NCBI GenBank assembly: GCA_030148225.1 | Contig: JASBTX010000038.1 | Span: forward strand, 152,434 to 216,433 | Source of the DNA: Paracoccaceae bacterium | GTDB lineage: Bacteria; Pseudomonadota; Alphaproteobacteria; Rhodobacterales; Rhodobacteraceae | DNA: 64,000 bases | Direction: 5' to 3' | Shown here: one piece after another, positions 25,530 to 41,824 of the stretch | Layout of the letters: every line of letters starts with the position of its first letter | Numbering within the stretch: the first letter of the stretch is position 1 | Made by a program: the position numbers and the translations under genes | The notes under the pieces: model-generated | What the model saw: only the letters and a program-made list of their open reading frames with translations | What the model was told of the DNA's origin: nothing | The model's database searches: none

Positions 25530-26966
25530 TTACGTATCGTTCACGCGCGGCAGCGCGGCCGTGACGAATGGCCGGGGCAGGGCGCGGCGCAATCTGTCGC
25601 CAAGCGCCTCGTCCAGCCGCTGGCGCTGGCCTTCGATCCTGAGTTCGGCACCCGCCCCCACCGAACGCAGCGCCTTGAATTCATGCCGGTTTATCAGATC
25701 GCTCTGGCTCTCTTGGGTGAGGGTGACATTGATCAGGAAGTTTCCGTCACCTGTCGGGCGCGGCGGTGTTTCGGTATCCAGCCGACCCGAGAGCGGACGT
25801 GTCTCCGCCCCCAGCCCCACGATCCGGATCAGAACGCGCCTTTCGGTGTCGAGTGCGGTCAGAAGATCGCCCGGCACCATCGCGGTAACGGCGTAGGGTC
25901 CCTCATGCGAGGCCGATAATTCGATCACCGGCGCATCCTGTTCAAACACCGCGTTGCCGGTCTGGCGGATGCGATAAATCTCTCCGGTGCTTGGCGCGCG
26001 AATCTCGGGGTTGTCCATGAGCACCTGCAATTGCGAGAGCGCCAGCGAGAGCGCGTCAATGTCACTGCTGAGCGCATGTGCTGCCTGCAGATTTTCCGAT
26101 TGCCGGGTGCTTTCGGCGTCGCGCGCGGCTTTTTCGAGGCGTGCGATATCGCCTTCCAGCAGTGATTTGGTCAGTTTCAGGCTCAACCCGGCGGTAACAT
26201 GGCCCAGCCGCGTCTGCAGGGGGCTATCTCCGTCGCGCGCGCGCCGGGCCAGCAAATTGATGCGGCGTTCAATGATGCGAACCTGCCCACCCATCCGGTC
26301 GATATCGGTCTGACGTTGGGCCGCGTCATCGGCAATTCGGGCCGTCATCAGCGCGCAGGATTTGCGCGCGGCCAGAAAGGCAAACCGCAGATCCGGCCCC
26401 GGGTGCGGCTCGGCCATCATGTCCCACGCGGGAATTGCGCTGTCCGCCGTTTCGGTCCGGGCCGGATTATCCGAGAATTCAGCGGATGTGTCATTGCCGG
26501 CCCGGCTGCCGATTAAACTTTCGCCGGTTTCCATATCCTCGGACGCGGCGGTGATCTGCTCGACGCTAATATTGCCTGTCGGCACGTCTCCGACCAAAAG
26601 GCATTCCCGTCTCAGGCGCAGCGCCACGCGCTGTCGGTTGAGAGCAGCGAATTTCTGCCTCAGCGTCGCCTCGTCCAGCAGAAACAGGATATCGCCCGCA
26701 TCCACCCTGTCGCCTTCGTGCACCAGCATCGTGCTGATGCGGGCATATTTGGGCAGGATGACCTGCTGGCGCGCATCCGCGGCCCGGATTTCACCGTTCA
26801 GCGAAAACCGGGACGGCACGGTGGCCTTGCGGATCAACAGCGCAGCCGAACCCAGCAGAACAAGCGCTGCCATGATGCCGAGGATAACCATCGCCGCCAT
26901 GCGCGGGGTGATCCGGGCGCTGCCATGCGCCTGGACGGCGACAGCTTCTGATGGGTTACCGTGCAT
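25530..26966 (-). CDS. HlyD-family membrane-fusion (periplasmic adaptor) protein
   Basis: N-terminal TM helix (MAAMVILGIMAALVLLGSAALLI), a lipoyl-like block (ARISTMLVHEGDRVDAGDILFLLD), a long coiled-coil middle and a beta-barrel end (IRAPSTGEIYRI). Start is uncertain (26966 overlapping the upstream stop, or 26900). Confidence 0.75.
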   Translation of the reverse strand: MHGNPSEAVAVQAHGSARITPRMAAMVILGIMAALVLLGSAALLIRKATVPSRFSLNGEIRAADARQQVILPKYARISTMLVHEGDRVDAGDILFLLDEATLRQKFAALNRQRVALRLRRECLLVGDVPTGNISVEQITAASEDMETGESLIGSRAGNDTSAEFSDNPARTETADSAIPAWDMMAEPHPGPDLRFAFLAARKSCALMTARIADDAAQRQTDIDRMGGQVRIIERRINLLARRARDGDSPLQTRLGHVTAGLSLKLTKSLLEGDIARLEKAARDAESTRQSENLQAAHALSSDIDALSLALSQLQVLMDNPEIRAPSTGEIYRIRQTGNAVFEQDAPVIELSASHEGPYAVTAMVPGDLLTALDTERRVLIRIVGLGAETRPLSGRLDTETPPRPTGDGNFLINVTLTQESQSDLINRHEFKALRSVGAGAELRIEGQRQRLDEALGDRLRRALPRPFVTAALPRVNDT

Positions 26967-28869
26967 CCTGCACCGCGTTGCGCGGTGCCAGCCGCGGATC
27001 ATATGTGGCGATCTTGACGGTGATCACGCGTTCACCGTTCTGCAGATCGTGGTCGAAATGCTGGCTGCCCCTGATGATCTGCGCCAGCGCCGAGCGCGGG
27101 CGGCCGAGCGCGAGGTTTTCGGCATCCTGACGCGCCCTTGCCATTTGCGTGCTGCCGATGGCGGCGCCCCGGTCGCGCATGCGCAATACGCAATGACCCT
27201 TTTGGTTCTTGAAATCGAAGGTCAGCGTCTGTGCCTCACTTCCCGTTATGTCCTGACAGGACAATGCCAGCATTTCACCGGCGATATTGATGACGTTGCG
27301 CCGGTTCTTTTCATCACCTGAGCGGCGGAAATGCGATCTGATCCAGGATTGGAGCGCGTCTTCGGCCTCGAGGGTGCGCTCGGACACGAGGCGCGACCAG
27401 CCCGACAACCTGCGGGCGCGAATGTCATCCGCTGGCCCCGAATCGATCAGCCGCCCCTCCTCGAGGACGATCAGCGTGTCGCACATTTCCAGTAGCGCGC
27501 GATTGTCGGTGGCAACAACAAAGCTGCGCCCGGCGCGGCGTTCGATCTGGATGCGCTGGCAAAGCGCGGCGATCATCGCTTCGTTGGCGCCATCCTCGGG
27601 CCGGTCAAAGAGATAGAGCGCGGGGTTCATCAGAAACGCGCGCGCCAGTCCCAGGGCCTTTTGCCAGGATGTCGGCAAATCGCGCATATCCGGCGCGGCC
27701 AGAATCATCTCGGCGGTTTCGCGGGAAAAGAGCATCTGTTCGAGGATGCGCACCGCCCGGTCGGCCTGGCCCACGCGCTGAAAACAGGTGATGTTGTTCA
27801 TGCCGCTGGCGGCGAAACCGAGCGGGCGTGGGGGGACATGTGCCACCGGCAGCGCCGCTGGTGCGGAAGATCGCCGCCAGAGCGAGCGGCCATCAAAGCG
27901 GACCCCGCCCTCAACCGACATGCCCGTCAGGTCATGCGGTGCGACAATGGCGTCCAAAAGCAGGCTCTTGCCGGCGCCAGCGCCGCCAATGATGCCGGTC
28001 ATCGTGCCCGGCTCGAGCGAGAGGTTTATCGGCCCCAGAATGGTCTGTCCGCCGCGCCGCATGACATTGAGATCGCTGATCTCCAATCCCCGTTCATCCG
28101 CATCAACAAGGCCCGATTCGCGAACGCGCGCATCGGGCCGCGCGCCGTCGCGCCGGTCCAGTGTATCCTGCAGGAACCGGCCAATCATCTCGGACGACGA
28201 GAGCACGAGGAGCAGGCTTGCCGTCATCGCGACGGGTTCCATCACGCCCCGCATGGCCAGAACCCCCGAGATCAGAAGCGTGGCCAGAAATCCGACAGCA
28301 TTGGTCAGATTGCCCAGCGCAGCCTGCCCGGAAACAGGGAGTGCCGGAGTGGCCTGCGCCAGTTCAAATCCGCGCCGGTCACGGCCTGCCAGAATTGATA
28401 CCGCCTCGGCCGGGTTGAAATCCCAGCGGGCACTGGCAATTGTGGCCCGGAACACGGCCAGTATCAGCCCCGCGCGCAGTGCGACCGCGCCCAAAAGGCC
28501 AAGCCCCAGCAGGGGATGGACGAATTCAAGCGTCAGGAATACAAGGACGCCCATGGCGGCGCGCACGGTGTTCTGCACGCGCGTCGTCCCGCCCAGAAAC
28601 CCCGCCATTGCCCGGTCTTGCGTTAGCTCGAGTATCGTCGCGGCAAGTGCCGGCACAAGACCGGCCAGCGCCAGTATCGGCAAAAGCGATGCATCCTGCA
28701 TATCCAGTACAAAGGATTGAAAAAGCAGTGCAACCAGCGCCAGCGAGAGCCAGAGCACCGACGCCAGCGTTCCCAGGACCCAGCTGAAAATCTGCACCCA
28801 TCCCGGCAATGCGCGGTCCTGACAGGGCAGGGGGATTGCGGTATCCTCTTCAGGTGTCGCTTCTGCCAT
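26956..28869 (-). CDS. ABC-exporter-like protein: membrane domain, degenerate NBD and C-terminal GHKL/RsbW-like domain
   Basis: ATG at 28869 is preceded by GGAGGA. About 240 aa are polytopic. Walker A GGAGAGKS is intact, but the signature motif (LPTSW), Walker B catalytic residue (FDRPEDG), Q-loop and H-loop are all substituted. The last ~150 aa follow an anti-sigma-kinase-like pattern (see findings). Confidence 0.7.
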   Translation of the reverse strand: MAEATPEEDTAIPLPCQDRALPGWVQIFSWVLGTLASVLWLSLALVALLFQSFVLDMQDASLLPILALAGLVPALAATILELTQDRAMAGFLGGTTRVQNTVRAAMGVLVFLTLEFVHPLLGLGLLGAVALRAGLILAVFRATIASARWDFNPAEAVSILAGRDRRGFELAQATPALPVSGQAALGNLTNAVGFLATLLISGVLAMRGVMEPVAMTASLLLVLSSSEMIGRFLQDTLDRRDGARPDARVRESGLVDADERGLEISDLNVMRRGGQTILGPINLSLEPGTMTGIIGGAGAGKSLLLDAIVAPHDLTGMSVEGGVRFDGRSLWRRSSAPAALPVAHVPPRPLGFAASGMNNITCFQRVGQADRAVRILEQMLFSRETAEMILAAPDMRDLPTSWQKALGLARAFLMNPALYLFDRPEDGANEAMIAALCQRIQIERRAGRSFVVATDNRALLEMCDTLIVLEEGRLIDSGPADDIRARRLSGWSRLVSERTLEAEDALQSWIRSHFRRSGDEKNRRNVINIAGEMLALSCQDITGSEAQTLTFDFKNQKGHCVLRMRDRGAAIGSTQMARARQDAENLALGRPRSALAQIIRGSQHFDHDLQNGERVITVKIATYDPRLAPRNAVQDAR

Positions 28870-29067: not shown

Positions 29068-30771
29068 ATGGAAAAAAACCAAATTGAAACCGAAAGGCCG
29101 GCACGGCGTACGGCGGGCTCTGCCGGGTTTTTGGCATTGGGGGCTTTGGCGCTGATAATTGCACTGGCTGCCGGGATCGGACAGATCGCGCGCGGCATGT
29201 TGCTGGCCACGGAAGAGGATATCGATCCGATCATTGCCGGCAGTTCCGAGGATGACATCCCGGCGCTGATGCGCGGCAACCGCCAGAAAGTGACCACCAG
29301 CATGGTCTATCGCGACGAGGAACCGGTACAGAAACCGCCACGCATGTGCGAAATGCCACCGGATTATTTCAATGCCATCAATAGCGCGGAACGCCCCGAG
29401 ATTGGCTATACACGGCGCAATGGTTACGTGCGCCCCTATACCCCCCGGCGGGGCTTTCTGACCGAGCGCGAGATGCGCGCCGCCAAGGTCGCCTGGCATT
29501 ATTTCGAGAAATTCACCCAACCCGATACGGGCCTGGCCAATTCGGTTGGTAATTTCCCCTCGACCACGCTCTGGGACACGGCCTCGTATATTTCCGGGAT
29601 GGTCGCGGCATATGAGCTCTGCCTGATCGAAAAAACCGAGTTTGATGATCGCATCTTTCGCCTGTTAACGACCGTCAAAGGGCTGAAACTCTTCAGAAAA
29701 GAACTGCCAAACAAGGTTTATCACACCAAGACCGGTGCGCAGGTCGACTATACCAACAAGCCCGGTGAAATCGGGTTTTCGGCGCTGGATATCGGGCGGT
29801 TCCTTGTCTGGATGCGTATCCTCAAGAACCGCTATCCCTATCTGGGCAACACGATCGATTCCGTGCTGCTGAAATGGGATTATTCCAATGTGATCGACCC
29901 TCAGGGCCTGCTTGTCGGCGCCTATGTCGACAGCGAAACGAATGAGACGAAATACGCGCAAGAGGGGCGGCTGGGATACGAGGAATATGCCGCCAAGGGC
30001 TTTGCGCTCTGGGGTTTCCGACCGCTTCTCGCGCATCGGGCCGAACCTTTTCTGACAGCCAGTATCTTTGGCGTACAGGTCCCCTATGACGGGCGCGATC
30101 CGCGTATTTTCCATTCGCAGAACTACGTTGTCACCGAATCCTATCTGCTCGACGGGCTCGAGCTGGATTTCGATCTGCCCCATGATGACAGTTCGGGGGA
30201 TCAGGTCCATTCGGATGGCTGGCGCGCCGAGTTTGCCGATCGCATCTACCGTGTCCAGGAGGCGCGCTATCGCAATACCGGCTTTCTGACCGCGCGCTCT
30301 GAACACAACGTCAAAGGGCCGCCATATTTCACCTATGACACCATCTTTTCAGATGGTTATCCGTGGAACACGGTCACACCCCGGGGCGATTACTCTCCCG
30401 ATCATGCGGCCATTGCCTCCAAGGCGGCAATGGGGCTCTGGTCGCTTTGGGATACGCCATATACGCAGCAGCTCTTTGATGCGGTGATCGAGCTTTATAA
30501 CCCTGAAAACGGCATCTACGAGGGGCTCTACGAGCGCGGGCAGGGCAAGATCGAAATCTATACCGCCAATAATAACGGCATCATTCTGGCGGCACTCTTG
30601 CACAAGGTCCAGGGCAAGATCCTGACGCCGCATACCGGCGGGCTCGAGGTCTGGTACACGGCCTTTCGCGATCAGGACGCACGCGAGCGCAAGAACCTGC
30701 CCGATCCGCCATTGCGAGAAGACTGGCTTCCCGCACTCAGACACACGGTCCAAACAGAGGCAGATTTCTGA
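29068..30771 (+). CDS. membrane-anchored DUF3131-like protein (putative glucan-binding/glycoside-hydrolase-like), paralog 1
   Basis: ATG after GGGGAG with an N-terminal TM anchor (FLALGALALIIALAAGIG). Blocks are shared with the 32213..33544 product (A.WHYFE..TQP.TG..NSV..FPSTTLWD; LPNK.Y; DIGRFL; QEGRLGYE.YAA). The DUF3131 assignment is from memory. Confidence 0.6.
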   Translation: MEKNQIETERPARRTAGSAGFLALGALALIIALAAGIGQIARGMLLATEEDIDPIIAGSSEDDIPALMRGNRQKVTTSMVYRDEEPVQKPPRMCEMPPDYFNAINSAERPEIGYTRRNGYVRPYTPRRGFLTEREMRAAKVAWHYFEKFTQPDTGLANSVGNFPSTTLWDTASYISGMVAAYELCLIEKTEFDDRIFRLLTTVKGLKLFRKELPNKVYHTKTGAQVDYTNKPGEIGFSALDIGRFLVWMRILKNRYPYLGNTIDSVLLKWDYSNVIDPQGLLVGAYVDSETNETKYAQEGRLGYEEYAAKGFALWGFRPLLAHRAEPFLTASIFGVQVPYDGRDPRIFHSQNYVVTESYLLDGLELDFDLPHDDSSGDQVHSDGWRAEFADRIYRVQEARYRNTGFLTARSEHNVKGPPYFTYDTIFSDGYPWNTVTPRGDYSPDHAAIASKAAMGLWSLWDTPYTQQLFDAVIELYNPENGIYEGLYERGQGKIEIYTANNNGIILAALLHKVQGKILTPHTGGLEVWYTAFRDQDARERKNLPDPPLREDWLPALRHTVQTEADF

Positions 30772-32141
30772 TGAAACAATTCCTGATCACCACCGCCATC
30801 GCGACCTTGCCCCTGCTTGGTCTGGCACCGTTCACCGCCACGGCCCAGTCGACAACCACCGATTTCAGCCCCGAAAACGCCATCCTCGATACATCGATCC
30901 TCTTTGCTGTCGGCGCGCGCGAGGCGCGTCAGGCATTGCGCAGCGCCTTTGGCTGGGAGATGTTTCAGGAAGGCCTTGTCGAAGGTGTGTATTTTCGTTT
31001 TGATCCAGATGGTTACGCGCGTTTCGCACCGACGCCGCGGCTTGATAGCGACGTCTTCGAGGTTATCTGCCGCCCCCGCACGCGTGTCTGCGAGGCCCGC
31101 AAAGAGGGGCTTGGCGTCTTTCTCGACAGCCGGGGCCGGGTTCAGCTCAGGCTCGAACAATATGTGCCGGGTGACCGCGTCTTCATATCCGAGGGGGTGA
31201 GCGATCTGGAATTGCCCGAGCGCGTGCTTCAGCCGCTGGATGCGCGCTTCGAGGCGCTCTTGTCGACTGGCGGGGAACTGGCGGTGCGGCGCGAGAATGC
31301 GCCCGTCACATCCGCGTCGCTGGTTGGGTTCGCGGCTGTCGTCGCCTATCTGCGCTGGATCAATGCCGGGCAGGACTATACCGTGCTGCCGCGCGACTGG
31401 CCGGTGCCGAACAGCATCGCCGGGGAAACGATCACGCGCACGCCGGAATGGACGTCTTTTACCGGCCGCGACCCCAACCCGGACGGGCGGCAGGTTGCGC
31501 TCGAAGGTGCGCAGGAACTGACCACCGAGATCGAGTTTCTGCGCAAGACGCTCGAGGCGCAGCGCAACGATCAGGAACCCCTGGCTGAGCAGGGGGCCAT
31601 CGCCTTTGATCGCCCATCCGAGCAGATCAGAGAGGGCTTTGTCACCGACAATTCGGCCATGGTCGACCTTGCCTCGCGGGTGACGCGCCTTGAATATGGG
31701 CTGGCTGATCTGCGCACCGAGATCGAGCGCAAGCTGCAATCACTGGAACTGCAGTTGCGGCTGGACGGTCAGGCGGGTGACACCCCTGCCATACCCTCTG
31801 ACGTCCCGATCCCCGATAATACGGATAAGGCGGTTCCCGCGCTCTCCGCCGCCGAAACCGTGCTTGGCTCGGCACCCGCCGAATTGTCACAGCTGGCGGC
31901 ACTTATGGAGATGTTGCAGCAGAACAATGACGTGAGCGACAGCATCATCCCGGTATCGCCCGCGAAGGACGCGATGAACGACCGGATATCGGAACGCTTG
32001 CTCTCGATCATCCTCGAAGAACTGGATCAGCCGCTGGGTGCTGCCCCGGCTGAGGCGCAACCCGCGCAGAATATTGTACCGCGCAACAGCGACTACCAGA
32101 AACTTTCCGACTATCTGAGCGGCCTGACCCAAGGGCAATGA
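30771..32141 (+). CDS. secreted hypothetical protein with coiled-coil segment
   Basis: The start overlaps the upstream stop (TGATG). It has a signal peptide (MKQFLITTAIATLPLLGLAPFTATAQS) and a central heptad-like region (VTRLEYGLADLRTEIERKLQSLELQLRL). No family recognised. Confidence 0.6.
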   Translation: MKQFLITTAIATLPLLGLAPFTATAQSTTTDFSPENAILDTSILFAVGAREARQALRSAFGWEMFQEGLVEGVYFRFDPDGYARFAPTPRLDSDVFEVICRPRTRVCEARKEGLGVFLDSRGRVQLRLEQYVPGDRVFISEGVSDLELPERVLQPLDARFEALLSTGGELAVRRENAPVTSASLVGFAAVVAYLRWINAGQDYTVLPRDWPVPNSIAGETITRTPEWTSFTGRDPNPDGRQVALEGAQELTTEIEFLRKTLEAQRNDQEPLAEQGAIAFDRPSEQIREGFVTDNSAMVDLASRVTRLEYGLADLRTEIERKLQSLELQLRLDGQAGDTPAIPSDVPIPDNTDKAVPALSAAETVLGSAPAELSQLAALMEMLQQNNDVSDSIIPVSPAKDAMNDRISERLLSIILEELDQPLGAAPAEAQPAQNIVPRNSDYQKLSDYLSGLTQGQ

Positions 32142-32212: not shown

Positions 32213-33544
32213 TCAGTTCTCGGTTTGGTTGCTATTCCGGGTTCTGCGCTTCAGAAACGGACCGAACTGGCGATAATGCAGCGCCTCGAGGATGACGGCG
32301 TTTGTATTCAGGCTGAGCGCCGCGTTGATCTGCCCGTCAGCCTCGTAGATACCGCCCGCCCAGCCACGCGCCGGGTTCTCCAGCGGCGCGATTTCGGCCA
32401 TCAACCGGGTGGTATAGGCGGTCGACAGTAGCGCATGCCAGGCAAATACCGATTTCGTGCTCAATGTCCTGAGCCCGGGATAAAGGGTGCCGACCTCATC
32501 GATCACGGCCCAGTCCTGCCCGTTGGCAAAGACCGAACTATAGAGGAAATAGGGTGCCCGGTCGATGTGGTCTTCCGACACCATCAGGGCGCGCCCTGTC
32601 CTCTCTCCCTCTGCCGCCTGTGCCTCGTAAATTCGCATGGCGGGCAGGCTCATCTCGGTCCCGGCGCCGAATTCCAGCAGCGACAGCACATATGGCTCGC
32701 TCAATATGGGTGTGATCGCGCCGAAATCGGCGTAACGACGCCGATCCGTGGCGACCTCGCGCCCCGAAATGCGGCGCCACCGGATCTTGTCTGCTGCCCG
32801 GATCGCCTGGCTGGTATCGATCCCGTAAAGCGACAGCGCGCGCGCGGCATATTGCTCATAGCCGAGCCGCCCTTCCTGCAGGCGGCGCCACGTGCCGTCC
32901 TCGCGCGCGGCACCCATCAGATCGCCGTCGCGGACAAGATCATCCAGCACCCATGCATCTGTGACGGCGGCGATCTCGGCGGCCAGTTCCGGTGCCTGCC
33001 GCCCAAGCGCCGACAGTGCGGCCAGAAACCGTCCGATATCCAGCACCGACCAGCCGATCCCGTCCGCGGCCGCGTTGTTCAGATAGTCCGTCTGGGTAAG
33101 GGTCAGCGTGTTATAGGCCTTGTTCGGCAGCCGCCCTTCAAAAAGCGGCAATGCCGCCGTGCTGCGCAGGAATTGCCGCGCCCTGTCCAGAAACGCCGCG
33201 TCGCCGATCAGGTCCAGTCTGCGCGCGGCGATGAGCGCAAAGACATAGGCCCCCTGATCCCAGAGTGTCGAGGATGGAAACCCGTCCACCGCGTTTACCC
33301 AGCCGGTTTCGGGCTGGGTGTTGCGCTCGATATACCGCCAGGCCGTTCTGGCGGCGCGCAATTCGTTGGCGGTCAGCGGGCGCTGCACCAGAGCGGCGAA
33401 ATCGCGGGTCGCCTCGGCGTAGCCATCCAGTTCAGAGATGCGCGAGAGCGGCCGGGACACGGCGGTATCCAACCCCAGAGCAAGGCCCGCCGCGCCGACG
33501 AGACCCGCCAAAAATATCAGGTTTGACACGTATTTCGGGCGCAT
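32213..33544 (-). CDS. DUF3131-like protein, paralog 2 (signal/anchor plus periplasmic domain)
   Basis: ATG 33544 is preceded by AGAGGGA and lies 4 nt after the GT2 stop. N-terminus MRPKYVSNLIFLAGLVGAAGLALG. It is clearly paralogous to the 29068..30771 product. Confidence 0.65.
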   Translation of the reverse strand: MRPKYVSNLIFLAGLVGAAGLALGLDTAVSRPLSRISELDGYAEATRDFAALVQRPLTANELRAARTAWRYIERNTQPETGWVNAVDGFPSSTLWDQGAYVFALIAARRLDLIGDAAFLDRARQFLRSTAALPLFEGRLPNKAYNTLTLTQTDYLNNAAADGIGWSVLDIGRFLAALSALGRQAPELAAEIAAVTDAWVLDDLVRDGDLMGAAREDGTWRRLQEGRLGYEQYAARALSLYGIDTSQAIRAADKIRWRRISGREVATDRRRYADFGAITPILSEPYVLSLLEFGAGTEMSLPAMRIYEAQAAEGERTGRALMVSEDHIDRAPYFLYSSVFANGQDWAVIDEVGTLYPGLRTLSTKSVFAWHALLSTAYTTRLMAEIAPLENPARGWAGGIYEADGQINAALSLNTNAVILEALHYRQFGPFLKRRTRNSNQTEN

Positions 33545-33548: not shown

Positions 33549-35261
33549 TTATCCCTCTGTCGCATGAGCAGTGCAGGCACCCACCCCGTGCGGCGGGCGC
33601 CAGAATCCGGCAAGGATCGGGGCGGCCAGCGCATAGCTGTTCCAACCGATCCAGAATGTATTGACCAAGACCAGCGTCGCATCCAGCGTGCCGGGCCAGA
33701 GCCAGAGACGAAGCAACGCCCAGATCACGGCGGCAAATCCGGCGCCGATCAGGGCCAGATGCAGCCGGCAATAGCGGAGCGACGCGGCCCCGCCGGGGGT
33801 TTTCGGTGTCGGTGCAAAACGGATCTCGCGCCCCCGCAGAACCAGCCAGAGCGCGCGCAGATTGATCTGAAGTGCAGCCAGGTTCTGGCGGGTACCATAG
33901 GTCGGATCATGGCCCCAGCAGCCGACGATCAGCGCCAGCTCATTGACCACCAGCAGCGGAATGAGCCGCATAAAAAACTCGGTCGAATAGGCGGAAACCG
34001 GGGCGATACCCGTCACCAGCGTCAAGATCGGCGCAAGAAGGAGCACCAGCACCCAGACAATCGAGAGATATGAGGAGAACGTGGCCAGATAATGCAGCTT
34101 GATCCGCCAAGGCATGGTGCGGCACATCAGCAGGTTGTGGCGCAGCATGATATCGAATGTGCCACCGGCATATTTAAGCTTTTGCCCGGCCCAGGCACGC
34201 AGGCTCCATGGTGAGAGCATCCTGCACTCGATCCGGGGGTGATAGACCGACCGCCAGTGCCGCGACGATGCGCCATGCAGCCGGATCGAGGTCAGGATAT
34301 CCTCGGATACATGATAGCAAAACGGGCGGAGATCCGCGGCCTGCGAAGCTGAACTGCCGGCATATTTGCGTGTGGCAAGCGCGGCCTCGAAAAGCGCCTC
34401 CGTTCGGTGCAGAGAGCCCGCGCCGCAGCAAAACGAGGCACCGTTGCGGTTGCGCCGTCGCTGGATGATGTCGAAAAACAACCCGGGATCGGCCTGAAAC
34501 GGATCGGCCCGGCCAGACAGCCATTGGCGAAACGATGTCCGCCGCCCGGGTTCGGGAATGTCGTAAAACCAGTGCGGCGTCTGAACCCATGCCACGCGCG
34601 CATCGCGGAAATAGCCCAATGTATTTTGCAGGAAAGCCGGGAAAAGCCGGGTGTCAGCATCGCAGATCACCGCGAAATCGGCGTCCGAGTGAAAGAGACC
34701 ATTCTTGAGATTCCCGGCCTTGAAACCGGTATTCTGCCGCCGCGCGACATAGCCTGCGCCCTCCTGTCGGGCGATCTCGGCCATCGCGGGGCGGGCGCCA
34801 TCATCGAGCACTGTGATGCGCAGGGCCGTGCCCGCAGGCGGGCGGACAGCCGCCGCATCCCGGATACTGAGGCGCACGAGTTCCGGGCTCTCGTCAAAGG
34901 TGGCGATGAAAATCTCCACCCGGACAGGCCCATCGCCTGCCAGATGCAGATCGGCGCGCTGCGCGGGCGGGGCTGGCGCGGGCGTGTCCGCGCTTGCCCA
35001 GATGTCGTGAAAAAAGAGCAGCGTTGCCAGATAGGCCATGGTCTCGGCGCTGAGCACGATCACCGAAAAGATCGGTGCCTCGGGGTTGATCGAGGCCGTC
35101 CAGCGCCAGCCAAGATACCACGCGCCAAGCCCGATGGTCAGCGCGGCCAGGAACTGCCAGAGCGCCTCGCGCAGGGGGCTTTCTGCCACCGGTTCGGGGG
35201 GGCAGCGATCCTCGTAAGCGTCAAAGTAGAATGCGGGCATGCGGGCCTGACTATCCGGCAC
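33549..35261 (-). CDS. processive family-2 glycosyltransferase, cellulose/curdlan-synthase-like, no PilZ domain
   Basis: Multi-TM protein with GT2 blocks: VLDDGAR, ICDADTRL, FCCGAGSLHRTEAL, SEDILTSIRLH, and QKLKYAGG where QxxRW is expected. Start is GTG 35261 or ATG 35240. Confidence 0.8.
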   Translation of the reverse strand: MPDSQARMPAFYFDAYEDRCPPEPVAESPLREALWQFLAALTIGLGAWYLGWRWTASINPEAPIFSVIVLSAETMAYLATLLFFHDIWASADTPAPAPPAQRADLHLAGDGPVRVEIFIATFDESPELVRLSIRDAAAVRPPAGTALRITVLDDGARPAMAEIARQEGAGYVARRQNTGFKAGNLKNGLFHSDADFAVICDADTRLFPAFLQNTLGYFRDARVAWVQTPHWFYDIPEPGRRTSFRQWLSGRADPFQADPGLFFDIIQRRRNRNGASFCCGAGSLHRTEALFEAALATRKYAGSSASQAADLRPFCYHVSEDILTSIRLHGASSRHWRSVYHPRIECRMLSPWSLRAWAGQKLKYAGGTFDIMLRHNLLMCRTMPWRIKLHYLATFSSYLSIVWVLVLLLAPILTLVTGIAPVSAYSTEFFMRLIPLLVVNELALIVGCWGHDPTYGTRQNLAALQINLRALWLVLRGREIRFAPTPKTPGGAASLRYCRLHLALIGAGFAAVIWALLRLWLWPGTLDATLVLVNTFWIGWNSYALAAPILAGFWRPPHGVGACTAHATEG

Positions 35262-36729
35262 GCAAGAGGGCAGGGGTGACAGCGATATCTTGCGGTGCGG
35301 GCGCGGTGCGTGGGCCTTGGGCGGTGGTCAGCGCCGTCTCTTCGGTTGCGGGTACGGCGGGGTAGATGCCCGAAATGCTCCAGTCATTGCTGATGATCTG
35401 ATCACAGTGTATCGCGCCCGTCTCGATTGCCGTGCCGGGCAGGATCACGCTTGCCCTGATCGAGCTGCGGGCGGGAATGGTTGTATTCGCTCCGATCACC
35501 ACGGGCCCGGTGATGTGGGCGCCGGGTGCGATATCGACACCTTCGCCCACCCAGATCGGCCCGTGAAAATTGCGCCGTTTCCCGATCAGGGTCAGCCGCG
35601 CCGCGCCGGGGCCGACAAATGCCGTCTGGCCGGGCGGCACCGCGCGCAGTGCGGCGATGTTTTCACGAAAGAAATCAAGGGGAGTGCCGATATCCCGCCA
35701 GTCGAAACCGGCGCTCCAGACGCAGATTTTGCCGCCTTGGGCCATCACCGCCGGAATGAGGTCACGGGCGATATCCTGCCCGGCGGCGGGGCCGATCGCG
35801 TTCAGCACCCCAGGCGACATCACATAGACCCCGATATTGGCCAGCCGCGAGCGGGCCTCTGCCGGGTCCGGCTTTTCCTGAAATCCCGTGACGGTGCCGC
35901 AAGGCGTGGCGGCGATGATCCCGTATTTCGACACGTCGCATTCCGCCACCTCCCGCGCGGCGATGGTGATCTCTGCCCCGCTTGCCTGATGTGCATCCAT
36001 GAGGGCGGCAAGGTCAGGATCGACCAGCGCATCGCCGCAAAAGACGAAGAACGGCGCGTCGAAACAGCTGAGCGCGGATTGCATCCGGCGAAGTGTCGAG
36101 GCCGAGCCCAGCGGTTCGTCAATCCATTCCCCGTCCCGATAGGCACCCTCGTTGAGATATGTCATGCGGATGTTCTGCCCGCGCCCGCTGCCGAAATAGT
36201 CGTGGATCTGCGGGCCCAGATAGCCCGGATTGGTCAGGATATCGCGCACACCGAACCGGGCCAGATGATCCAGCTGGTGATGCAGGATCGGGCGGCCAAG
36301 GATGGGCAGCATCGGTTTGGGATAACGAAGCGTCAGGGGGCGGCACCGCGTTCCCTTGCCCGCCGCCAACAGCACCGCCCGCCGCCCCGCCAGCCGGTGA
36401 CGACGGCCCCAAGGTGAGGTCAGCGCAGCCGATTTGGTGGCAAAATACCGAAGGCTCTCTATCAGCTCTGACCGTCTGAGCCGGTCTGCCACGCCGTCGC
36501 GGGCACCGAAAAAACCGGTCTGGGGGCGGCTGGCATGCAACTCAGCCAGCGCCGCCAGCCCGCCAAAGTTTATTGTGCGCACGCCCGACAGATCCAGAAG
36601 CGCCGCGCGCTGCCCGACATCGTACTCCGAAAGCGCGTTCTGCAATTCGCTCAGGGCATTGGCGCGCAGCATACGGGCGCTGACGCGGAATACGGCCAGA
36701 TCGCCATATCGTTCGATTTGGGTCATCAT
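35251..36729 (-). CDS. STAS domain fused to an NDP-sugar pyrophosphorylase with C-terminal left-handed beta-helix
   Basis: The start ATGATG overlaps the upstream stop (ATGA). Residues 1-~105 have an anti-sigma-antagonist-like layout. This is followed by LLAAGKGTRCRPLTLRYPKPMLPI (GxGTRxxPLT motif) and hexapeptide-like repeats near the C-terminus. The 95-codon upstream extension in the track is antisense-overlap noise. Confidence 0.75.
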   Translation of the reverse strand: MMTQIERYGDLAVFRVSARMLRANALSELQNALSEYDVGQRAALLDLSGVRTINFGGLAALAELHASRPQTGFFGARDGVADRLRRSELIESLRYFATKSAALTSPWGRRHRLAGRRAVLLAAGKGTRCRPLTLRYPKPMLPILGRPILHHQLDHLARFGVRDILTNPGYLGPQIHDYFGSGRGQNIRMTYLNEGAYRDGEWIDEPLGSASTLRRMQSALSCFDAPFFVFCGDALVDPDLAALMDAHQASGAEITIAAREVAECDVSKYGIIAATPCGTVTGFQEKPDPAEARSRLANIGVYVMSPGVLNAIGPAAGQDIARDLIPAVMAQGGKICVWSAGFDWRDIGTPLDFFRENIAALRAVPPGQTAFVGPGAARLTLIGKRRNFHGPIWVGEGVDIAPGAHITGPVVIGANTTIPARSSIRASVILPGTAIETGAIHCDQIISNDWSISGIYPAVPATEETALTTAQGPRTAPAPQDIAVTPALLRAG

Positions 36730-37883
36730 GGTTTGGGGCTCCGGATTGTTGGACGGCGATAGGGGATCAGGCGACCGGGATCGAACCGGGGGCGGGGGCC
36801 CAGACCGATGGTCCATGCCATCGTCGGCCAGCGCCCGATCAACCAGACAAATCCCGATGTCGCCAGCAGCACGAAAACGATCTTGGTCAGTACGAATGGC
36901 CCGGGGTGCAGCGCCAGCCCGGCCAGTCCGATTTCGGCCAGATCCATGAAAACCGGATGCGTGAGGTAGATGCCGAAACTGTAGGGCGCGAGCCGCGACA
37001 GCAGCACAGGCCATTTCCTGTCCGCCAGCAAAAGGCAGATCAGGAACAGGATCACCGGCATGATGAAATCGGCCCAGTAGGCGGGCGTGTAGTTATATTG
37101 CCAGTCACCCGCCAGTGCGACGCGGTAGGTATAGATGAGCTTGATCAGAAAGAGGCCAAGGCCAAGATAGATCACGACGCTGACCCATTGTCTGGCAACC
37201 GCGCCGGTGGGCCGCATCCGGTAAAGCCCCAGACAGGCACCCGCCGCCATGCCATAGCCCAGATAGGTAAAAAGTTTGATCCCTCGTACGAGGTAGTCAA
37301 AGCCGTCAAGCCACTGAAGTTCCGACCAGATAAACAGATCGGCCTCGCGCTTGATCAGCAGGCTGGGGATCAGGATCAGCCCCAGCCATGGATTGGCTAC
37401 CGCCAGCCGGAAGAGCGGATAGGCCAGCACCAGAGCAAAGAGGGTCGGGATGAAGTGCATGTGATATTTCACGGCCCCCAGCAGCAGATATTCCGCCCAC
37501 GCGGCGGGGCTGCGCATCTCGGCGATGGCCGAGGGCAGATAGCCAAAGCTCGTTGCCTTGATCAGGTTCCAGAACGCAAAGAACAGAGTCCAGAAGAGAA
37601 ACGGCACCAAAAGCCGCGCCGCCTGTTCGCGAATGATTTCACCATAGCTGCGCGGACGCCGGTCGAGCGCCATCAGCAACAGAAAGAGCGATATGATGAT
37701 GAAAAGCTCGGTCCGCGCGGTATAGACCACGACCCGGATCAGCAGGGGGACCAGACGCTCGGACGGGGTGGCATCGGGGAAGGGCTGGCCGGTCGGGTCG
37801 GCGGTGGCATGCAGCCCCACCATCGACACGCCCGCAATCAGGCGCAGGGCATCCAGCCAGATCAATCTCGAATGTTCGCGCAC
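36726..37883 (-). CDS. acyltransferase-3 family membrane protein (OpgC/OafA-like O-acyl/succinyl transferase)
   Basis: About 10 TM helices, N-terminal RLIWLDALRLIAGVSMVGLH and C-terminal SFGIYLTHP. GTG 37883 is preceded by GGAGG with a 5 nt spacer. The track start (TTG 37958) is less likely. Confidence 0.75.
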   Translation of the reverse strand: MREHSRLIWLDALRLIAGVSMVGLHATADPTGQPFPDATPSERLVPLLIRVVVYTARTELFIIISLFLLLMALDRRPRSYGEIIREQAARLLVPFLFWTLFFAFWNLIKATSFGYLPSAIAEMRSPAAWAEYLLLGAVKYHMHFIPTLFALVLAYPLFRLAVANPWLGLILIPSLLIKREADLFIWSELQWLDGFDYLVRGIKLFTYLGYGMAAGACLGLYRMRPTGAVARQWVSVVIYLGLGLFLIKLIYTYRVALAGDWQYNYTPAYWADFIMPVILFLICLLLADRKWPVLLSRLAPYSFGIYLTHPVFMDLAEIGLAGLALHPGPFVLTKIVFVLLATSGFVWLIGRWPTMAWTIGLGPRPRFDPGRLIPYRRPTIRSPKP

Positions 37884-38045: not shown

Positions 38046-38546
38046 ATGCGGGCGGTGTTGATGGCGGTAGGATTATTCTGGGCAACGGCCCTGGGGGCGC
38101 AGGTCAGTGATGATACCTGCCGCGTGGTGGCGCTGCAGCTCGATATCGATCCGTCAAAATGTGATGCGCCCGCGTCGGAAACTCCGGCAACATCCACCCC
38201 CGCCGAACGCGATTATCGCATCCATTTCCCAGAAGGATCGATTATTCTGGTCGATGAGTACCGGCGTCATCTGGATATGCTGGTCGGGCTTCTGCGCACG
38301 GAATTGCTGCATGACACCTGCCTCAGACTGGTGGGTCATAGCGATGCCACGGGCAAGGCCGCGGCAAATCAGAAACTCTCGGTCGCGCGTGCAGATGCGG
38401 TCAAGGCCTATATTGTTGAGCAATATCCCGAAGTCGCACCGCGTGTCGAAACCGCCGGGTTGGGCGATACCCTGCCGCTGGCGGGTTTTTCGGCGCGTGA
38501 TCCCTTTAACAGGCGGGTCGAGATTTTTGCCCGCCGCTGCCTTTGA
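38046..38546 (+). CDS. OmpA-like (peptidoglycan-associating) domain protein, secreted
   Basis: AAAGGAGG lies 5 nt before the ATG. Signal peptide MRAVLMAVGLFWATALGAQV. OmpA_C-like block LVGHSDATGKAAANQKLSVARADAVKAYI...NRRVEI. Confidence 0.7.
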   Translation: MRAVLMAVGLFWATALGAQVSDDTCRVVALQLDIDPSKCDAPASETPATSTPAERDYRIHFPEGSIILVDEYRRHLDMLVGLLRTELLHDTCLRLVGHSDATGKAAANQKLSVARADAVKAYIVEQYPEVAPRVETAGLGDTLPLAGFSARDPFNRRVEIFARRCL

Positions 38547-41138: not shown

Positions 41139-41824
41139 GCCGCTGCCCCTTGTGCAACTTCCAGCCTGCCGTCGCGCAAACCGACCGTGCGCGACGTGCG
41201 CGCGGCAAGGCTGCGGGAATGGGTGACCAGAACCAGCGTCGCGCCATGCCGTTCCGTCAGCGAAAACAAAAGATCGACAATCATGTCGCCAGTGGCACTG
41301 TCTAGGTTGCCCGTCGGCTCATCAGCCAGCAGGATTGCGGGCCGGGGGGCGGCGGCGCGGGCCAGCGCGACTCGCTGTTGTTCCCCGCCGGACATCTGCG
41401 CCGGGTAATGATCGGCGCGCGCCTCCAGCCCGACGGCGCTCAGCGCCTCATGCGCGCGGTCAAACGCATCGCCAACGCCTGCGAGTTCCAGCGGCGTGGC
41501 CACGTTTTCCAGCGCCGTCATCGTCGGGATCAGGTGAAAGGATTGGAAAACGATGCCCATATTGTCGCGCCGGAACCGCGCCAGCGCGTCTTCGTCCATA
41601 TGGGTCAGATCATGGCCCAGCGCCCGCACCTCGCCACCCGTGGCGGCCTCCAGCCCCCCCATCAGCATCAGGAGTGATGATTTGCCCGAACCGGACGGGC
41701 CGACAAGGCTGACGGTTTCACCGGCCTGAACCTCGAGCGTGATTCCATGCAGAATTTCGACCATTCCGGCATTGCCTTTCAGGGTCAGGCTTGCATCTTT
41801 GAGGGATAGGACAGGAGATTGCAT
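41135..41824 (-). CDS. ABC transporter ATP-binding protein (YbbA-like)
   Basis: GPSGSGKSSLL, MSGGEQQRVALARA, LLADEPTGNLD, VTHS. Start is ATG 41824 (MQSPVLSL) or 41830. Confidence 0.85.
   Translation of the reverse strand: MQSPVLSLKDASLTLKGNAGMVEILHGITLEVQAGETVSLVGPSGSGKSSLLMLMGGLEAATGGEVRALGHDLTHMDEDALARFRRDNMGIVFQSFHLIPTMTALENVATPLELAGVGDAFDRAHEALSAVGLEARADHYPAQMSGGEQQRVALARAAAPRPAILLADEPTGNLDSATGDMIVDLLFSLTERHGATLVLVTHSRSLAARTSRTVGLRDGRLEVAQGAAA

What the first reader, a model, noticed from the sequence alone, without database searches (positions are those of the whole stretch)
35251..36729. STAS (anti-sigma-antagonist-like) domain fused to an NDP-sugar pyrophosphorylase, with the phospho-serine position lost
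Residues 1-~105 (MMTQIERYGDLAVFRVSARMLRANALSELQNAL...AALLDLSGVRTINFGGLAALAEL...) follow the SpoIIAA/RsbV pattern. Where the DSSGL motif carries the phosphorylatable Ser, the sequence reads INFGGL, so Gly replaces Ser. The remainder is a sugar-1-phosphate nucleotidyltransferase (AAGKGTRCRPLTLRYPKPMLPI) with a C-terminal hexapeptide-repeat region. I know STAS domains on SulP transporters and in sigma-factor cascades, but not on a precursor-forming enzyme. A non-phosphorylatable STAS paired with a kinase-dead RsbW-like domain suggests a docking or allosteric switch. It could couple NDP-sugar supply to the membrane export complex.
Basis: partly seen in the sequence, partly recalled or inferred. 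Interest (0 to 1): 0.75.

Follow-up and report, generated by a model that had tools for sequence, protein, structure and literature searches.

The report
STAS-fused sugar-nucleotide enzyme, fossil partner switch
A sugar-activating enzyme in a marine Rhodobacterales beta-glucan gene cluster carries a signalling (STAS) domain left over from a kinase/phosphatase "partner switch", and its likely binding partner, a dead kinase domain, sits on a membrane ABC-like protein in the same cluster, which suggests a hard-wired link between sugar supply or sensing and polymer export.

Summary
The gene lies on the minus strand (36729..35251, 492 aa). It encodes an N-terminal STAS domain, an intact NDP-sugar pyrophosphorylase core and a C-terminal beta-helix. 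One correction: Phe55 occupies the phospho-serine position, and Gly56 replaces the following serine.

The catalytic part is closest to a solved UDP-glucose pyrophosphorylase (8x7s, E 6e-56). The gene sits in a cluster conserved across Rhodobacterales. The cluster holds an acyltransferase, a PilZ-less BcsA-like synthase, two DUF3131 proteins, and a degenerate ABC-like protein with a HlyD-like adaptor. The C-terminal domain of the ABC-like protein folds like the anti-sigma kinases SpoIIAB, UsfX and RsbW, but appears to lack the N-box Asn and the G2 box.

The main new result concerns the closest unfused relatives, which are betaproteobacterial or come from unassigned metagenome contigs. There the enzyme gene is flanked by a complete partner-switching module: REC-PP2C phosphatase, STAS with canonical DSSGL, and an intact RsbW-type kinase. 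A BcsA-like synthase follows in three of these loci, with DUF3131 genes in the one locus long enough to show them. The window therefore holds a fused, phosphorylation-free derivative. About a third of the fused family has lost the catalytic residues but keeps STAS, so the conserved role looks regulatory or scaffolding.

STAS to pseudokinase docking is inferred, not shown. This is a new variant of a known kind. The precedents are STAS-fused glycosyltransferases in cyanobacteria.

The parts
35251..36729 (-). STAS-fused NDP-sugar pyrophosphorylase gene, 492 aa, the finding itself
   Evidence: All 28 close homologues start at the same Met.
36415..36729 (-). STAS domain, residues 1-105. The canonical partner-binding motif is D46-L-S-G-V-R-T-I-N-F55-G-G-L.
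   Evidence: Pfam and PDB profile hits. AlphaFold2 pLDDT 87-95 for most of the domain, 76 for residues 31-40.
36565..36567 (-). Codon of Phe55, the position of the phosphorylated Ser58 of SpoIIAA
   Evidence: Alignment to SpoIIAA and RsfB. Ser or Thr in 3 of 82 family members.
36382..36414 (-). Structured linker, residues 106-116. Its length fits translation of the ~35-nt STAS-to-enzyme spacer of the unfused loci.
   Evidence: Helices 99-104 and 106-112 with pLDDT >90. L060 gene coordinates are 9645-9965 and 10001-11167. The origin of the linker is an inference.
35659..36381 (-). Nucleotidyltransferase catalytic domain, residues 117-357, with G-K-G-T-R, PKP, CGD and EKP motifs intact
   Evidence: Pfam E 1.3e-36. 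Best solved relative is 8x7s, UTP--glucose-1-phosphate uridylyltransferase, E 6e-56. All 6 of 6 catalytic marker residues are kept.
35365..35574 (-). Left-handed beta-helix (hexapeptide) region, residues ~386-455, followed by a disordered tail 456-492
   Evidence: Hexapep and LbH_EIF2B below cut-off. The alignment to 8x7s runs to residue 431. pLDDT is 58-68 across most of it, and 36-53 at its start.
36726..37883 (-). Membrane acyltransferase (Acyl_transf_3), translationally coupled to the finding by the ATGA overlap
   Evidence: Conserved upstream neighbour in the related loci.
33549..35240 (-). BcsA-like processive GT2 glucan synthase without a PilZ domain. It starts 10 nt after the stop codon of the finding.
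   Evidence: PDB BcsA E 3e-30 over residues 38-546. CelA TIGR03030 E 5e-44, below cut-off. No PilZ hit.
32213..33544 (-). DUF3131 protein a, anchored by an N-terminal hydrophobic segment
   Evidence: Pfam E 1e-120. Hydropathy. No solved relative by sequence.
30771..32141 (+). Secreted 456-aa protein with no known domain
   Evidence: Found next to the ABC-like gene in nearly all related loci.
29068..30771 (+). DUF3131 protein b, anchored by an N-terminal hydrophobic segment
   Evidence: 64-79% identical across most loci, making it the best-conserved gene of the cluster.
26956..28869 (-). ABC-like membrane protein, 637 aa: about 4-6 TM helices, a degenerate nucleotide-binding domain and a C-terminal RsbW-like domain
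   Evidence: Walker A GAGAGKS is kept. Walker B reads F-D-R-P-E-D, with no Glu after the Asp. There is no H-loop His.
26980..27408 (-). RsbW/SpoIIAB-like pseudokinase domain, residues ~488-630 of the ABC-like protein. This is the proposed partner of the STAS domain.
   Evidence: AlphaFold2 pLDDT 86.5. Foldseek top hits are SpoIIAB 1til/1l0o/1th8, UsfX 8ih8_C and RsbW 6m36. Sequence evidence is weak only.
25530..26900 (-). HlyD-type periplasmic adaptor, directly downstream of the ABC-like gene
38046..38546 (+). Small OmpA-like protein, a conserved divergent neighbour of the acyltransferase gene
   Evidence: Gene calls in L001, L143 and L144.

Best explanation
The gene encodes a cytoplasmic, probably active NDP-sugar pyrophosphorylase. 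The most likely product is UDP-glucose, made by a CugP-like enzyme. Its N-terminal STAS domain is the fused remnant of the antagonist component of a partner-switching module.

In the closest unfused relatives (betaproteobacteria), the enzyme gene sits between a REC-PP2C phosphatase, a phosphorylatable STAS protein and an RsbW-type serine kinase. A BcsA-like synthase gene follows in three of those loci, with four DUF3131 genes in the one locus long enough to show them. In Rhodobacterales the switch has become phosphorylation-independent and hard-wired. STAS is fused to the enzyme with its Ser lost. The kinase survives only as a pseudokinase domain on the C-terminus of a degenerate ABC-like protein that pairs with a HlyD adaptor. 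No PP2C phosphatase is present.

Proposed mechanism (inferred): the STAS domain docks on the pseudokinase domain. This places the enzyme, or in some lineages a catalytically dead and possibly sugar-nucleotide-sensing version of it, at the membrane machine. That machine polymerises UDP-glucose (BcsA-like GT2), modifies the glucan (acyltransferase, DUF3131 proteins) and exports it (ABC-like/HlyD). Precursor availability and synthesis or export are thereby coupled without c-di-GMP/PilZ control.

Shown here: domain identities, loss of the motifs, gene-cluster conservation, and the unfused module in relatives. Inferred: the physical STAS-pseudokinase contact, the nature of the sugar, and the direction of regulation.
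For: - STAS identity.
- Loss of the phospho-site across the family.
- Catalytic core intact and closest to UDP-glucose pyrophosphorylase 8x7s (193 bits, against 107 bits for GDP-mannose enzymes).
- The partner domain folds like SpoIIAB, UsfX and RsbW.
- A weak profile alignment puts Leu at the N-box Asn, keeps the G1 Asp in a DxxxP[IV] motif that resembles the DxGxPIP of the unfused kinases, and shows no G2 glycines.
- Co-location: 55 Rhodobacterales loci carry the ABC-pseudokinase gene. In 29 of them the enzyme gene lies within 10 kb, and it carries a detectable STAS domain in every one. Three further loci have the gene without a detectable STAS: two are cut by the locus edge and one is too diverged to assign.
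- The reverse look-up from two STAS-enzyme homologues gives the same cluster.
- Unfused ancestor-like module: all 10 loci whose enzyme is at least 56% identical to P0031 carry STAS (IDSSGLG) next to the enzyme. Nine of them also carry REC-SpoIIE and an HATPase_c_2 kinase with N, G1 and G2 boxes; the tenth is a 2.1-kb contig that ends after STAS. Three of them also carry the BcsA-like GT2, and L060 carries four DUF3131 genes. The ~70 loci at 51-55% identity have none of these.
- These unfused enzymes are the best non-fused hits of the window protein.
- No PP2C in the 64-kb window.
- STAS outlasts catalysis. 9 of about 31 Rhodobacterales loci, and 41 of 112 fused proteins, have lost GxGTR and Lys but keep STAS and the beta-helix.
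- Precedent for partner-switch control of polysaccharide enzymes: PMC13555669 and Baena 2019 as cited in PMC13438883.
Against:
- A mirror-tree comparison gave no specific co-evolution signal. STAS vs RsbW-like r was 0.48, and STAS vs GT2 r was 0.50.
- The pseudokinase domain has no significant sequence similarity to HATPase_c_2. Best Pfam E was 0.068, in 3 of 15 members, and the hhalign probability was low. Homology therefore rests on the fold and on context.
- About 20 of the 55 ABC-pseudokinase loci have no STAS-enzyme operon within 10 kb. Whether it lies elsewhere in those genomes is unknown.
- By the domain-fusion (Rosetta stone) argument, the fusion itself points to a STAS-enzyme interaction in cis. 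That could be the whole story.
- Sugar and nucleotide specificity are not established. The best NCBIfam hit is a mannose-1-phosphate guanylyltransferase model, far below its cut-off.
Confidence: 0.5

Rival explanations
1. Cis-regulatory module. The STAS domain acts only within its own polypeptide, as an allosteric, oligomerisation or ligand-binding domain of the pyrophosphorylase. In the unfused systems, unphosphorylated STAS likewise binds and activates the enzyme. The pseudokinase on the ABC-like protein is either an unrelated relic or only a sequestering inhibitor.
For: Domain fusion predicts a STAS-enzyme contact. The linker is structured and conserved (A102 and L113; helices with pLDDT >90), and the whole-chain pTM is 0.81, which suggests a fixed STAS-enzyme orientation. 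In Anabaena the STAS of All4160 controls the enzyme it is fused to.
Against: It does not explain why a SpoIIAB-like domain is kept, with 20 invariant and 14 nearly invariant positions, in every ABC-like homologue of the cluster. It also does not explain why the most conserved STAS segment is the canonical kinase-binding motif DLSGV..SGL. It is not exclusive with the best explanation.
Confidence: 0.25
2. MlaB-like accessory. The STAS domain binds the nucleotide-binding domain of the ABC-like protein directly, as MlaB binds MlaF, and stabilises or gates it. The C-terminal GHKL-like domain is not the docking site.
For: The family STAS profile also hits MlaB-type STAS subunits of ABC transporters (6zy2, 6xbd, 6xgy; E 1e-3 to 3e-3). 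The partner protein does carry an ABC domain with Walker A intact.
Against: Hits to anti-sigma antagonists are about a million-fold better (1e-9). The unfused relatives pair this STAS with an RsbW-type kinase and have no ABC protein in the module.
Confidence: 0.1
3. Evolutionary relic. Both the STAS domain and the pseudokinase domain are decaying leftovers of a lost partner switch and have no present function. The protein is simply the cluster's dedicated UDP-glucose pyrophosphorylase.
For: The phospho-site, the kinase motifs and the phosphatase are all gone. The window protein's own STAS score is only borderline.
Against: STAS stays detectable in 29 Rhodobacterales loci and 82 fused database proteins, 112 sequences once combined. 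It is kept even where the catalytic site has decayed, so it is under stronger constraint than catalysis. The pseudokinase domain is among the best-conserved parts of the ABC-like protein, for example WIRSHFRRxGDExNRR.
Confidence: 0.07

Closest known systems
Canonical partner-switching systems (SpoIIAA/SpoIIAB/SpoIIE, RsbV/RsbW/RsbU, mycobacterial RsfB/UsfX)
   Same: The STAS domain matches these antagonists best. The partner domain matches their kinases best by fold. The closest unfused relatives of the enzyme sit inside a complete module of this kind.
   Different: There is no phosphorylatable Ser, no N-box Asn or G2 box, no PP2C phosphatase and no sigma factor. Both components are fused to other proteins, an enzyme and an ABC-like membrane protein. 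The output is metabolic or secretory, not transcriptional.
STAS-fused polysaccharide glycosyltransferases of cyanobacteria (All4160 with HenR and Alr3423; XssP), PMC13555669
   Same: An N-terminal STAS domain sits on a polysaccharide-pathway enzyme. A REC-PP2C phosphatase of the HenR type is found in the unfused betaproteobacterial relatives. Regulation acts on an enzyme, not on a sigma factor.
   Different: There the fusion partner is a 'bacterial sugar transferase', the switch depends on phosphorylation, and the authors report the architecture as nearly confined to cyanobacteria. Here the partner is an NDP-sugar pyrophosphorylase, the Ser is lost, and the lineage is Rhodobacterales.
BgrU/BgrV/BgrW partner switch controlling mixed-linkage beta-glucan synthesis in Sinorhizobium meliloti (Baena et al. 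2019, as cited in PMC13438883), and the BgsA/BgsB(HlyD)/TolC machine
   Same: In an alphaproteobacterium, a BcsA-like glucan synthase works with a HlyD-type adaptor, and a partner switch decides whether the glucan is made.
   Different: There the switch acts on a diguanylate cyclase, and BgsA is activated by c-di-GMP. Here the synthase has no PilZ or c-di-GMP domain that I could detect, and the switch components are fused to the precursor enzyme and to an ABC-like protein.
SypA/SypE of Vibrio fischeri (STAS protein controlling Syp polysaccharide; PMC10120452, listed; details from my own knowledge)
   Same: A STAS protein controls exopolysaccharide production after transcription, with an RsbW-like kinase partner.
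   Different: SypA is a stand-alone, phosphorylatable STAS whose target is unknown. It is not fused to an enzyme.
MlaB-MlaF (a STAS subunit bound to an ABC ATPase)
   Same: A STAS domain is associated with an ABC-type nucleotide-binding protein. Weak profile hits were found.
   Different: MlaB is a stand-alone protein that binds the ATPase itself. Here a dedicated GHKL-like domain is available, and the ancestry points to kinase binding.
CugP-type UDP-glucose pyrophosphorylase (PDB 8x7s, tlr0611) and the GMPPA/GMPPB pair
   Same: The catalytic domain plus beta-helix aligns with 8x7s over residues 115-431 (E 6e-56). As with GMPPA (my own knowledge), a catalytically degenerate paralogue class exists that may bind sugar nucleotide as a regulator.
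   Different: Neither has a STAS domain. Substrate specificity of the window enzyme is untested.

Membership tests
STAS domain (Pfam PF01740/PF13466, SpoIIAA-like fold) | Significant match to the STAS profile over most of its length | tested here: met
   The window protein alone is borderline (E 1e-4, 22.5 bits against a cut-off of 22.6, profile positions 3-104 of 106). 21 of 26 homologues match at E<0.01, and the family profile hits solved STAS proteins down to 1e-9.
STAS domain (Pfam PF01740/PF13466, SpoIIAA-like fold) | Four-stranded beta-sheet with helices in the order beta-beta-alpha-beta-alpha-beta-alpha-alpha | tested here: inconclusive
   The AlphaFold2 model gives E2-8, E11-16, H25-36, E42-46, H55-67, E71-74, H78-86, H99-104 with pLDDT 87-95 for most of it and 76 for residues 31-40. 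The fold search of the whole model was dominated by the nucleotidyltransferase part, so the STAS domain was not searched on its own.
Canonical partner-switching system | Phosphorylatable Ser or Thr at the start of STAS helix 2 (DSSGL) | tested here: not met
   The window reads N54-F55-G56-G57-L58. The position is Ser or Thr in 3 of 82 fused proteins. The unfused relatives have IDSSGLG.
Canonical partner-switching system | RsbW/SpoIIAB-type serine kinase with N, G1 and G2 boxes | tested here: not met
   The fold matches. No significant HATPase_c_2 sequence match was found. A weak alignment gives Leu for the N-box Asn and no G2 glycines, with the G1 Asp kept.
Canonical partner-switching system | PP2C (SpoIIE/RsbU-type) phosphatase encoded with the pair | tested here: not met
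   An iterated profile search of all ORFs of the 64-kb window found only an NtrC-type regulator, through its receiver domain. The phosphatase is present in the unfused loci.
Canonical partner-switching system | Physical STAS-kinase complex that alternates with a kinase-target complex | not testable with these tools
   No complex prediction was available. The mirror-tree comparison was uninformative.
NDP-sugar pyrophosphorylase (PF00483) | G-x-G-T-R-x(n)-K signature and catalytic Asp and Lys | tested here: met
   The sequence LAAGKGTRCRPLT..PKPML, CGD, FQEKP keeps 6 of 6 marker residues.
CugP-type UDP-glucose pyrophosphorylase | UTP + glucose-1-phosphate specificity | not testable with these tools
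   The closest solved relative is named a UTP--glucose-1-phosphate uridylyltransferase, and the neighbouring synthase is BcsA-like. No NCBIfam equivalog cut-off is reached.
STAS-fused polysaccharide enzymes of the All4160/XssP type | STAS fused to a 'bacterial sugar transferase' domain and switched by phosphorylation | tested here: not met
   The fusion partner is NTP_transferase and the Ser is absent. The family description comes from PMC13555669.
ABC exporter (partner protein) | Walker A, Walker B with catalytic Glu, signature motif, H-loop His | tested here: not met
   Walker A is kept. Walker B reads D-R/Q-P-E-D across the family. LSGGQ is reduced to L-S-x-x-Q. There is no H-loop His. The ABC_tran match is weak, E 1.7e-10.

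The most novel reading that the evidence does not exclude
The STAS-(pseudo)pyrophosphorylase is not mainly a precursor supplier. Instead it is a UDP-glucose-sensing regulatory subunit. Through phosphorylation-independent STAS-pseudokinase docking it gates a non-hydrolysing ABC-like/HlyD conduit and a PilZ-less glucan synthase. This would be a metabolite-driven partner switch without kinase or phosphatase. In the unfused betaproteobacterial and enterobacterial versions, the same enzyme would be the direct output of a classical partner switch.
Probability: 0.2. Interest if true: 0.8.

Novelty: new variant of a known kind. Interest (0 to 1): 0.62.

Why it matters
Partner switches are best known as sigma-factor controls. 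Cases where they act directly on enzymes are few and recent. This locus preserves the wiring of one as two gene fusions. The fusions imply that the switch belongs to an NDP-sugar pyrophosphorylase and to a membrane export complex of a BcsA-like, PilZ-less beta-glucan system.

The fusions also give a concrete hypothesis for the unfused module (REC-PP2C, STAS, enzyme, RsbW kinase). Going by published annotations that I did not verify here, gene clusters with a cellulose synthase, DUF3131 proteins, OpgC and an anti-sigma factor with its antagonist also occur on accessory islands of Klebsiella pneumoniae and Salmonella (PMC12974863, PMC3401170). Their polymer and regulation are uncharacterised.

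Catalytically dead members that still keep STAS suggest a regulatory pseudoenzyme class comparable to GMPPA. If confirmed, this would be a c-di-GMP-independent way of controlling synthase-dependent glucan secretion.

Tried and rejected
1. The plus-strand reading of the coordinates is interrupted by stops. The gene is on the minus strand.
2. Sequence-only proof that the ABC C-terminal domain is a GHKL kinase failed. The profile against PDB gave only chance hits. Pfam HATPase_c_2 reached E 0.068 in 3 of 15 members. hhalign against a SpoIIAB sequence recalled from memory was not significant. hhalign against an alignment of the unfused kinases gave a topologically sensible but low-probability alignment. 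Only the fold search was clear.
3. The mirror-tree and partial-correlation test of STAS against the pseudokinase gave no specific signal.
I used the ABC family instead.
5. The plasmid collection holds no fused homologue.
6. The YbbA/YbbP-like ABC pair at 38604-41947 is not part of the cluster, because it is absent from related loci.
7. A 250-aa ORF between the enzyme and synthase genes in 18 related loci was checked as a possible hidden RsbW. It is a secreted protein, and it is absent from the window.
8. Apparent stand-alone copies of the pseudokinase domain turned out to be a frameshifted ABC gene (L146) and a truncated remnant (L145).
9. The Collimonas and Tepidimonas homologues have no switch genes. 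The association is therefore specific to one clade of the enzyme.
10. DUF3131 has no solved relative by sequence, so the glucan linkage could not be inferred.
11. The organism name could not be recovered.

Full report
**1. What is at the coordinates.**
The plus strand of 35251-36729 is interrupted by stops. The longest ORF starts further upstream. The real start is the ATG at 36729. It overlaps the TGA of the upstream gene as ATGA. It is the start used by an independent gene call on an identical contig (492 aa). It is also the start shared by all 28 close homologues.

**2. Domains.**
Pfam gives three regions:
- NTP_transferase at residues 118-357 (E 1.3e-36).
- Hexapeptide/LbH matches at 392-447 that stay below the cut-offs.
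- STAS at residues 4-100 over nearly the whole profile, but only at E 0.003.

On the isolated N-terminus the STAS score is 22.5 bits against a cut-off of 22.6. The family settles the question. 21 of 26 homologous N-termini hit STAS at E<0.01. A profile of them finds solved anti-sigma-factor antagonists over their full length: 4qtp at 1e-9, RsfB 8ih8 at 7e-9, TM1442 at 3e-5, SpoIIAA at 1e-4. It finds MlaB-type STAS subunits more weakly, at about 1e-3. The AlphaFold2 model (28-sequence alignment, pTM 0.81) has pLDDT 87-95 for most of residues 1-112 (76 for residues 31-40), with alternating strands and helices and a structured linker.

**3. The phospho-site.**
Against SpoIIAA D-S58-S-G-L and RsfB, the window reads N54-F55-G56-G57-L58. 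Phe, not Gly, occupies the phospho-serine position, and Gly replaces the next serine. No hydroxyl residue is available at any of the three positions. In 82 fused proteins the S58-equivalent is Ser or Thr in only 3; Ala (18) and Phe (11) are the most common. The surrounding motif DLSGV..SGL is nevertheless the best-conserved part of the domain.

**4. The enzyme part.**
The signature residues are all present: GKGTR, PKP, CGD, EKP. The best solved relative by sequence is 8x7s (tlr0611). Its depositors name it UTP--glucose-1-phosphate uridylyltransferase (E 6e-56, 193 bits, residues 115-431). GDP-mannose pyrophosphorylases reach about 107 bits. The fold search gives the same order. No NCBIfam equivalog cut-off is reached. 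UDP-glucose is therefore the most likely product, but this is not shown. From my own knowledge this is the CugP class of non-GalU enzymes. I could not confirm that from the paper library.

**5. The neighbourhood.**
On the minus strand, in order:
- Acyl_transf_3 membrane acyltransferase, 37883-36726.
- The finding.
- A GT2, 35240-33549, that aligns with BcsA over residues 38-546 and has no PilZ domain.
- A DUF3131 protein.

On the plus strand there is a second DUF3131 protein and a secreted 456-aa protein with no known domain.

On the minus strand again there is a 637-aa membrane protein followed by a HlyD-type adaptor. The 637-aa protein has about 4-6 TM helices and a degenerate ABC domain. 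Walker A is kept. Walker B reads D-R-P-E-D, with no Glu after the Asp. There is no H-loop His, and this holds across the family. It also has a strongly conserved C-terminal domain of about 150 residues.

**6. The RsbW-like partner.**
Sequence methods alone do not identify that C-terminal domain. Its AlphaFold2 model is confident (pLDDT 86.5). The best PDB fold matches are the partner-switch kinases: SpoIIAB (1til, 1l0o, 1tid, 1th8; E 3e-5 to 3e-4; TM 0.58-0.68), UsfX (8ih8_C) and RsbW (6m36). These rank ahead of histidine-kinase catalytic domains. A low-probability profile alignment to the unfused kinases is topologically consistent with this. It places Leu57 at the N-box Asn. It keeps the G1 Asp in a DxxxP[IV] motif that recalls the DxGxPIP of those kinases. 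It shows no G2 glycines. "Kinase-dead RsbW-like domain" is therefore supported at the level of fold and motifs.

**7. Conservation of the pair.**
The ABC-pseudokinase family is small. It was found in 55 loci of GTDB species representatives. Every locus with a genus- or family-level label is Rhodobacterales, and some are labelled only Pseudomonadota or Alphaproteobacteria. The DUF3131b gene and the 456-aa gene accompany it almost everywhere.
- In 29 loci the enzyme gene lies within the 10-kb flank, and it carries a detectable STAS domain in every one.
- Three further loci have the gene without a detectable STAS. Two are cut by the locus edge, and one (L057) is too diverged to assign.
- Look-ups starting from two STAS-enzyme homologues return the same cluster.
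- About 20 loci have no operon within 10 kb. I could not test whether it lies elsewhere in those genomes.
- A full scan of 1.8 billion representatives found 53 further fused representatives among the top 150, beyond those already found.

**8. Where the fusion came from.**
The best non-fused hits of the window protein are enzymes of 385-392 aa.
- Around one of them in Sphaerotilus the gene order is: REC-SpoIIE phosphatase, a 106-aa STAS, the enzyme, a 158-aa HATPase_c_2 protein, a BcsA-like GT2, four DUF3131 genes and, further on, an OpgC-like gene.
- A metagenome contig has the same four-gene module in another context.
- Among 80 further metagenome loci plus those already fetched, all 10 whose enzyme is at least 56% identical to P0031 carry STAS next to the enzyme. 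Nine of them also carry the phosphatase and the kinase; the tenth is a 2.1-kb contig that ends after STAS. The orders seen are PP2C-STAS-enzyme-kinase(-GT2), PP2C-enzyme-STAS-kinase and enzyme-PP2C-STAS-kinase.
- The ~70 loci at 51-55% identity have none of these genes.
- Collimonas and Tepidimonas homologues have none either.

In these unfused systems the STAS has canonical IDSSGLG. The kinase has its N-box (TEVLTNVVRHG), G1 box (DQGSPIP) and G2 box (GGMGLA). The 35-nt gap between STAS and enzyme in L060 matches the 10-12-residue linker of the fused protein. That is what loss of a stop codon would produce (inference). The window has no PP2C gene.

**9. Degenerate members.**
In several Rhodobacterales lineages (Boseongicola, Cognatishimia, Tropicimonas, Roseivivax, Planktomarina) Pfam no longer recognises the nucleotidyltransferase domain, or barely does. 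STAS and the beta-helix are still found in all but the Planktomarina locus, L057, where only the beta-helix is found. In alignment the GxGTR, Lys and EKP motifs are gone. Scored on six marker residues, 65 of 112 fused proteins keep all six, and 41 keep four or fewer. Alignment of such divergent sequences is imperfect, so these numbers are approximate. The window protein keeps all six. In this family the STAS domain is therefore under stronger constraint than catalysis.

**10. Mechanism.**
The most economical reading is a fossilised partner switch. The antagonist (STAS) and the kinase survive as a docking pair. The antagonist is welded to the enzyme, and the kinase remnant is welded to a non-canonical ABC-like/HlyD membrane complex. 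Phosphorylation has been abandoned: no Ser, no ATP-binding motifs, no phosphatase. Docking would bring or hold the (pseudo)pyrophosphorylase at the machine that polymerises, modifies and exports a glucan. With no PilZ domain on the synthase, this could replace c-di-GMP control.

The contact itself is inferred. The mirror-tree test was uninformative and no complex prediction could be run. Three rivals remain:
- A purely cis-acting STAS. The fusion logic and the rigid linker support this.
- MlaB-like binding to the ABC domain.
- A non-functional relic. Conservation argues against this.

**11. What is known.**
- STAS fused to polysaccharide glycosyltransferases, switched by a REC-PP2C (HenR) and a kinase, was described in Anabaena in 2026. 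Its authors call it nearly cyanobacteria-specific (PMC13555669).
- A partner switch controls mixed-linkage glucan synthesis through a diguanylate cyclase in Sinorhizobium (Baena 2019, cited in PMC13438883). That glucan machine is BgsA/HlyD-type BgsB/TolC.
- Papers on Klebsiella and Salmonella list accessory islands with a cellulose synthase, DUF3131 proteins, OpgC, a sensor kinase and an anti-sigma factor with its antagonist, without functional study.
- I found no paper that links a STAS domain to an NDP-sugar pyrophosphorylase, and none on DUF3131 function.

**12. Verdict.**
It is also sharpened: the pair is a phosphorylation-free, fused derivative of a partner switch that in relatives surrounds the same enzyme, and the conserved role is probably regulatory or scaffolding. 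This is a new variant of a known kind, of moderate to good interest.

Noticed in passing
L011:6669-8081(-), L055:2053-3609(+), L056:15070-16434(+), L057:1864-3411(+), L035, L051, L033, L050: In these Rhodobacterales loci the STAS-fused protein has lost the nucleotidyltransferase signature (GxGTR, Lys, EKP), and Pfam no longer finds that domain. STAS and the beta-helix remain in all but L057, where only the beta-helix is found. These look like pseudoenzymes. About 41 of 112 fused proteins score 4 or fewer of 6 catalytic markers.
   Followed up: partly
L060:8376-20807 (Sphaerotilus), L061:8363-11684, L063-L069, L101: The enzyme sits next to a REC-SpoIIE phosphatase, a canonical STAS and an HATPase_c_2 kinase in nine loci, in three gene orders; a tenth, L067, is a 2.1-kb contig showing only the enzyme and STAS. 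A BcsA-like GT2 follows in three of the loci, and L060 also has four DUF3131 genes. This appears to be an undescribed partner switch whose output is probably the enzyme.
   Followed up: partly
window 26956-28869 (-): The ABC domain of the 637-aa protein keeps Walker A. Across the family it has D-R/Q-P-E-D instead of D-E-P-T, has no H-loop His and has a reduced signature motif. It probably binds nucleotide without normal hydrolysis. An invariant Glu sits two positions after the usual catalytic Glu.
   Followed up: partly
window 28717-32141 (+) and 55 related loci: The trio of ABC-pseudokinase, DUF3131b (64-79% identical across most loci, the best-conserved gene of the cluster) and a secreted 456-aa protein of unknown fold stays together. 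This holds even in about 20 loci where the biosynthetic operon is not within 10 kb.
   Followed up: no
L143:18204-18983(-), L144:7001-7846(-): A GH16 glycoside hydrolase (the laminarinase/licheninase family) lies next to the cluster in two relatives. This hints that the polymer could contain beta-1,3 linkages. I did not look for one in the window.
   Followed up: no
L143:11498-12262, L144:11494-12246 and 16 further loci: A secreted ~250-aa protein with no known domain is inserted between the STAS-enzyme gene and the synthase gene in 18 related loci. It is absent from the window, where the two genes are 10 nt apart.
   Followed up: yes
window 36726-36729: An ATGA start/stop overlap joins the acyltransferase gene and the STAS-enzyme gene, which suggests translational coupling.
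   Followed up: yes
L145:2198-2866: A 222-aa ORF consisting essentially of the pseudokinase domain sits directly before a HlyD-like gene, with no ABC part. It may be a truncated remnant.
   Followed up: partly
window 38604-41947 (-), 21957-24497 (+), 20665-21801 (+), 58169-59494 (+): These are ordinary flanking genes: a YbbA/YbbP-like ABC pair, Lon protease, tRNA-guanine transglycosylase and an NtrC-type regulator. None of the three searched for in the related loci (the ABC pair and Lon) is conserved next to the cluster there.
   Followed up: yes
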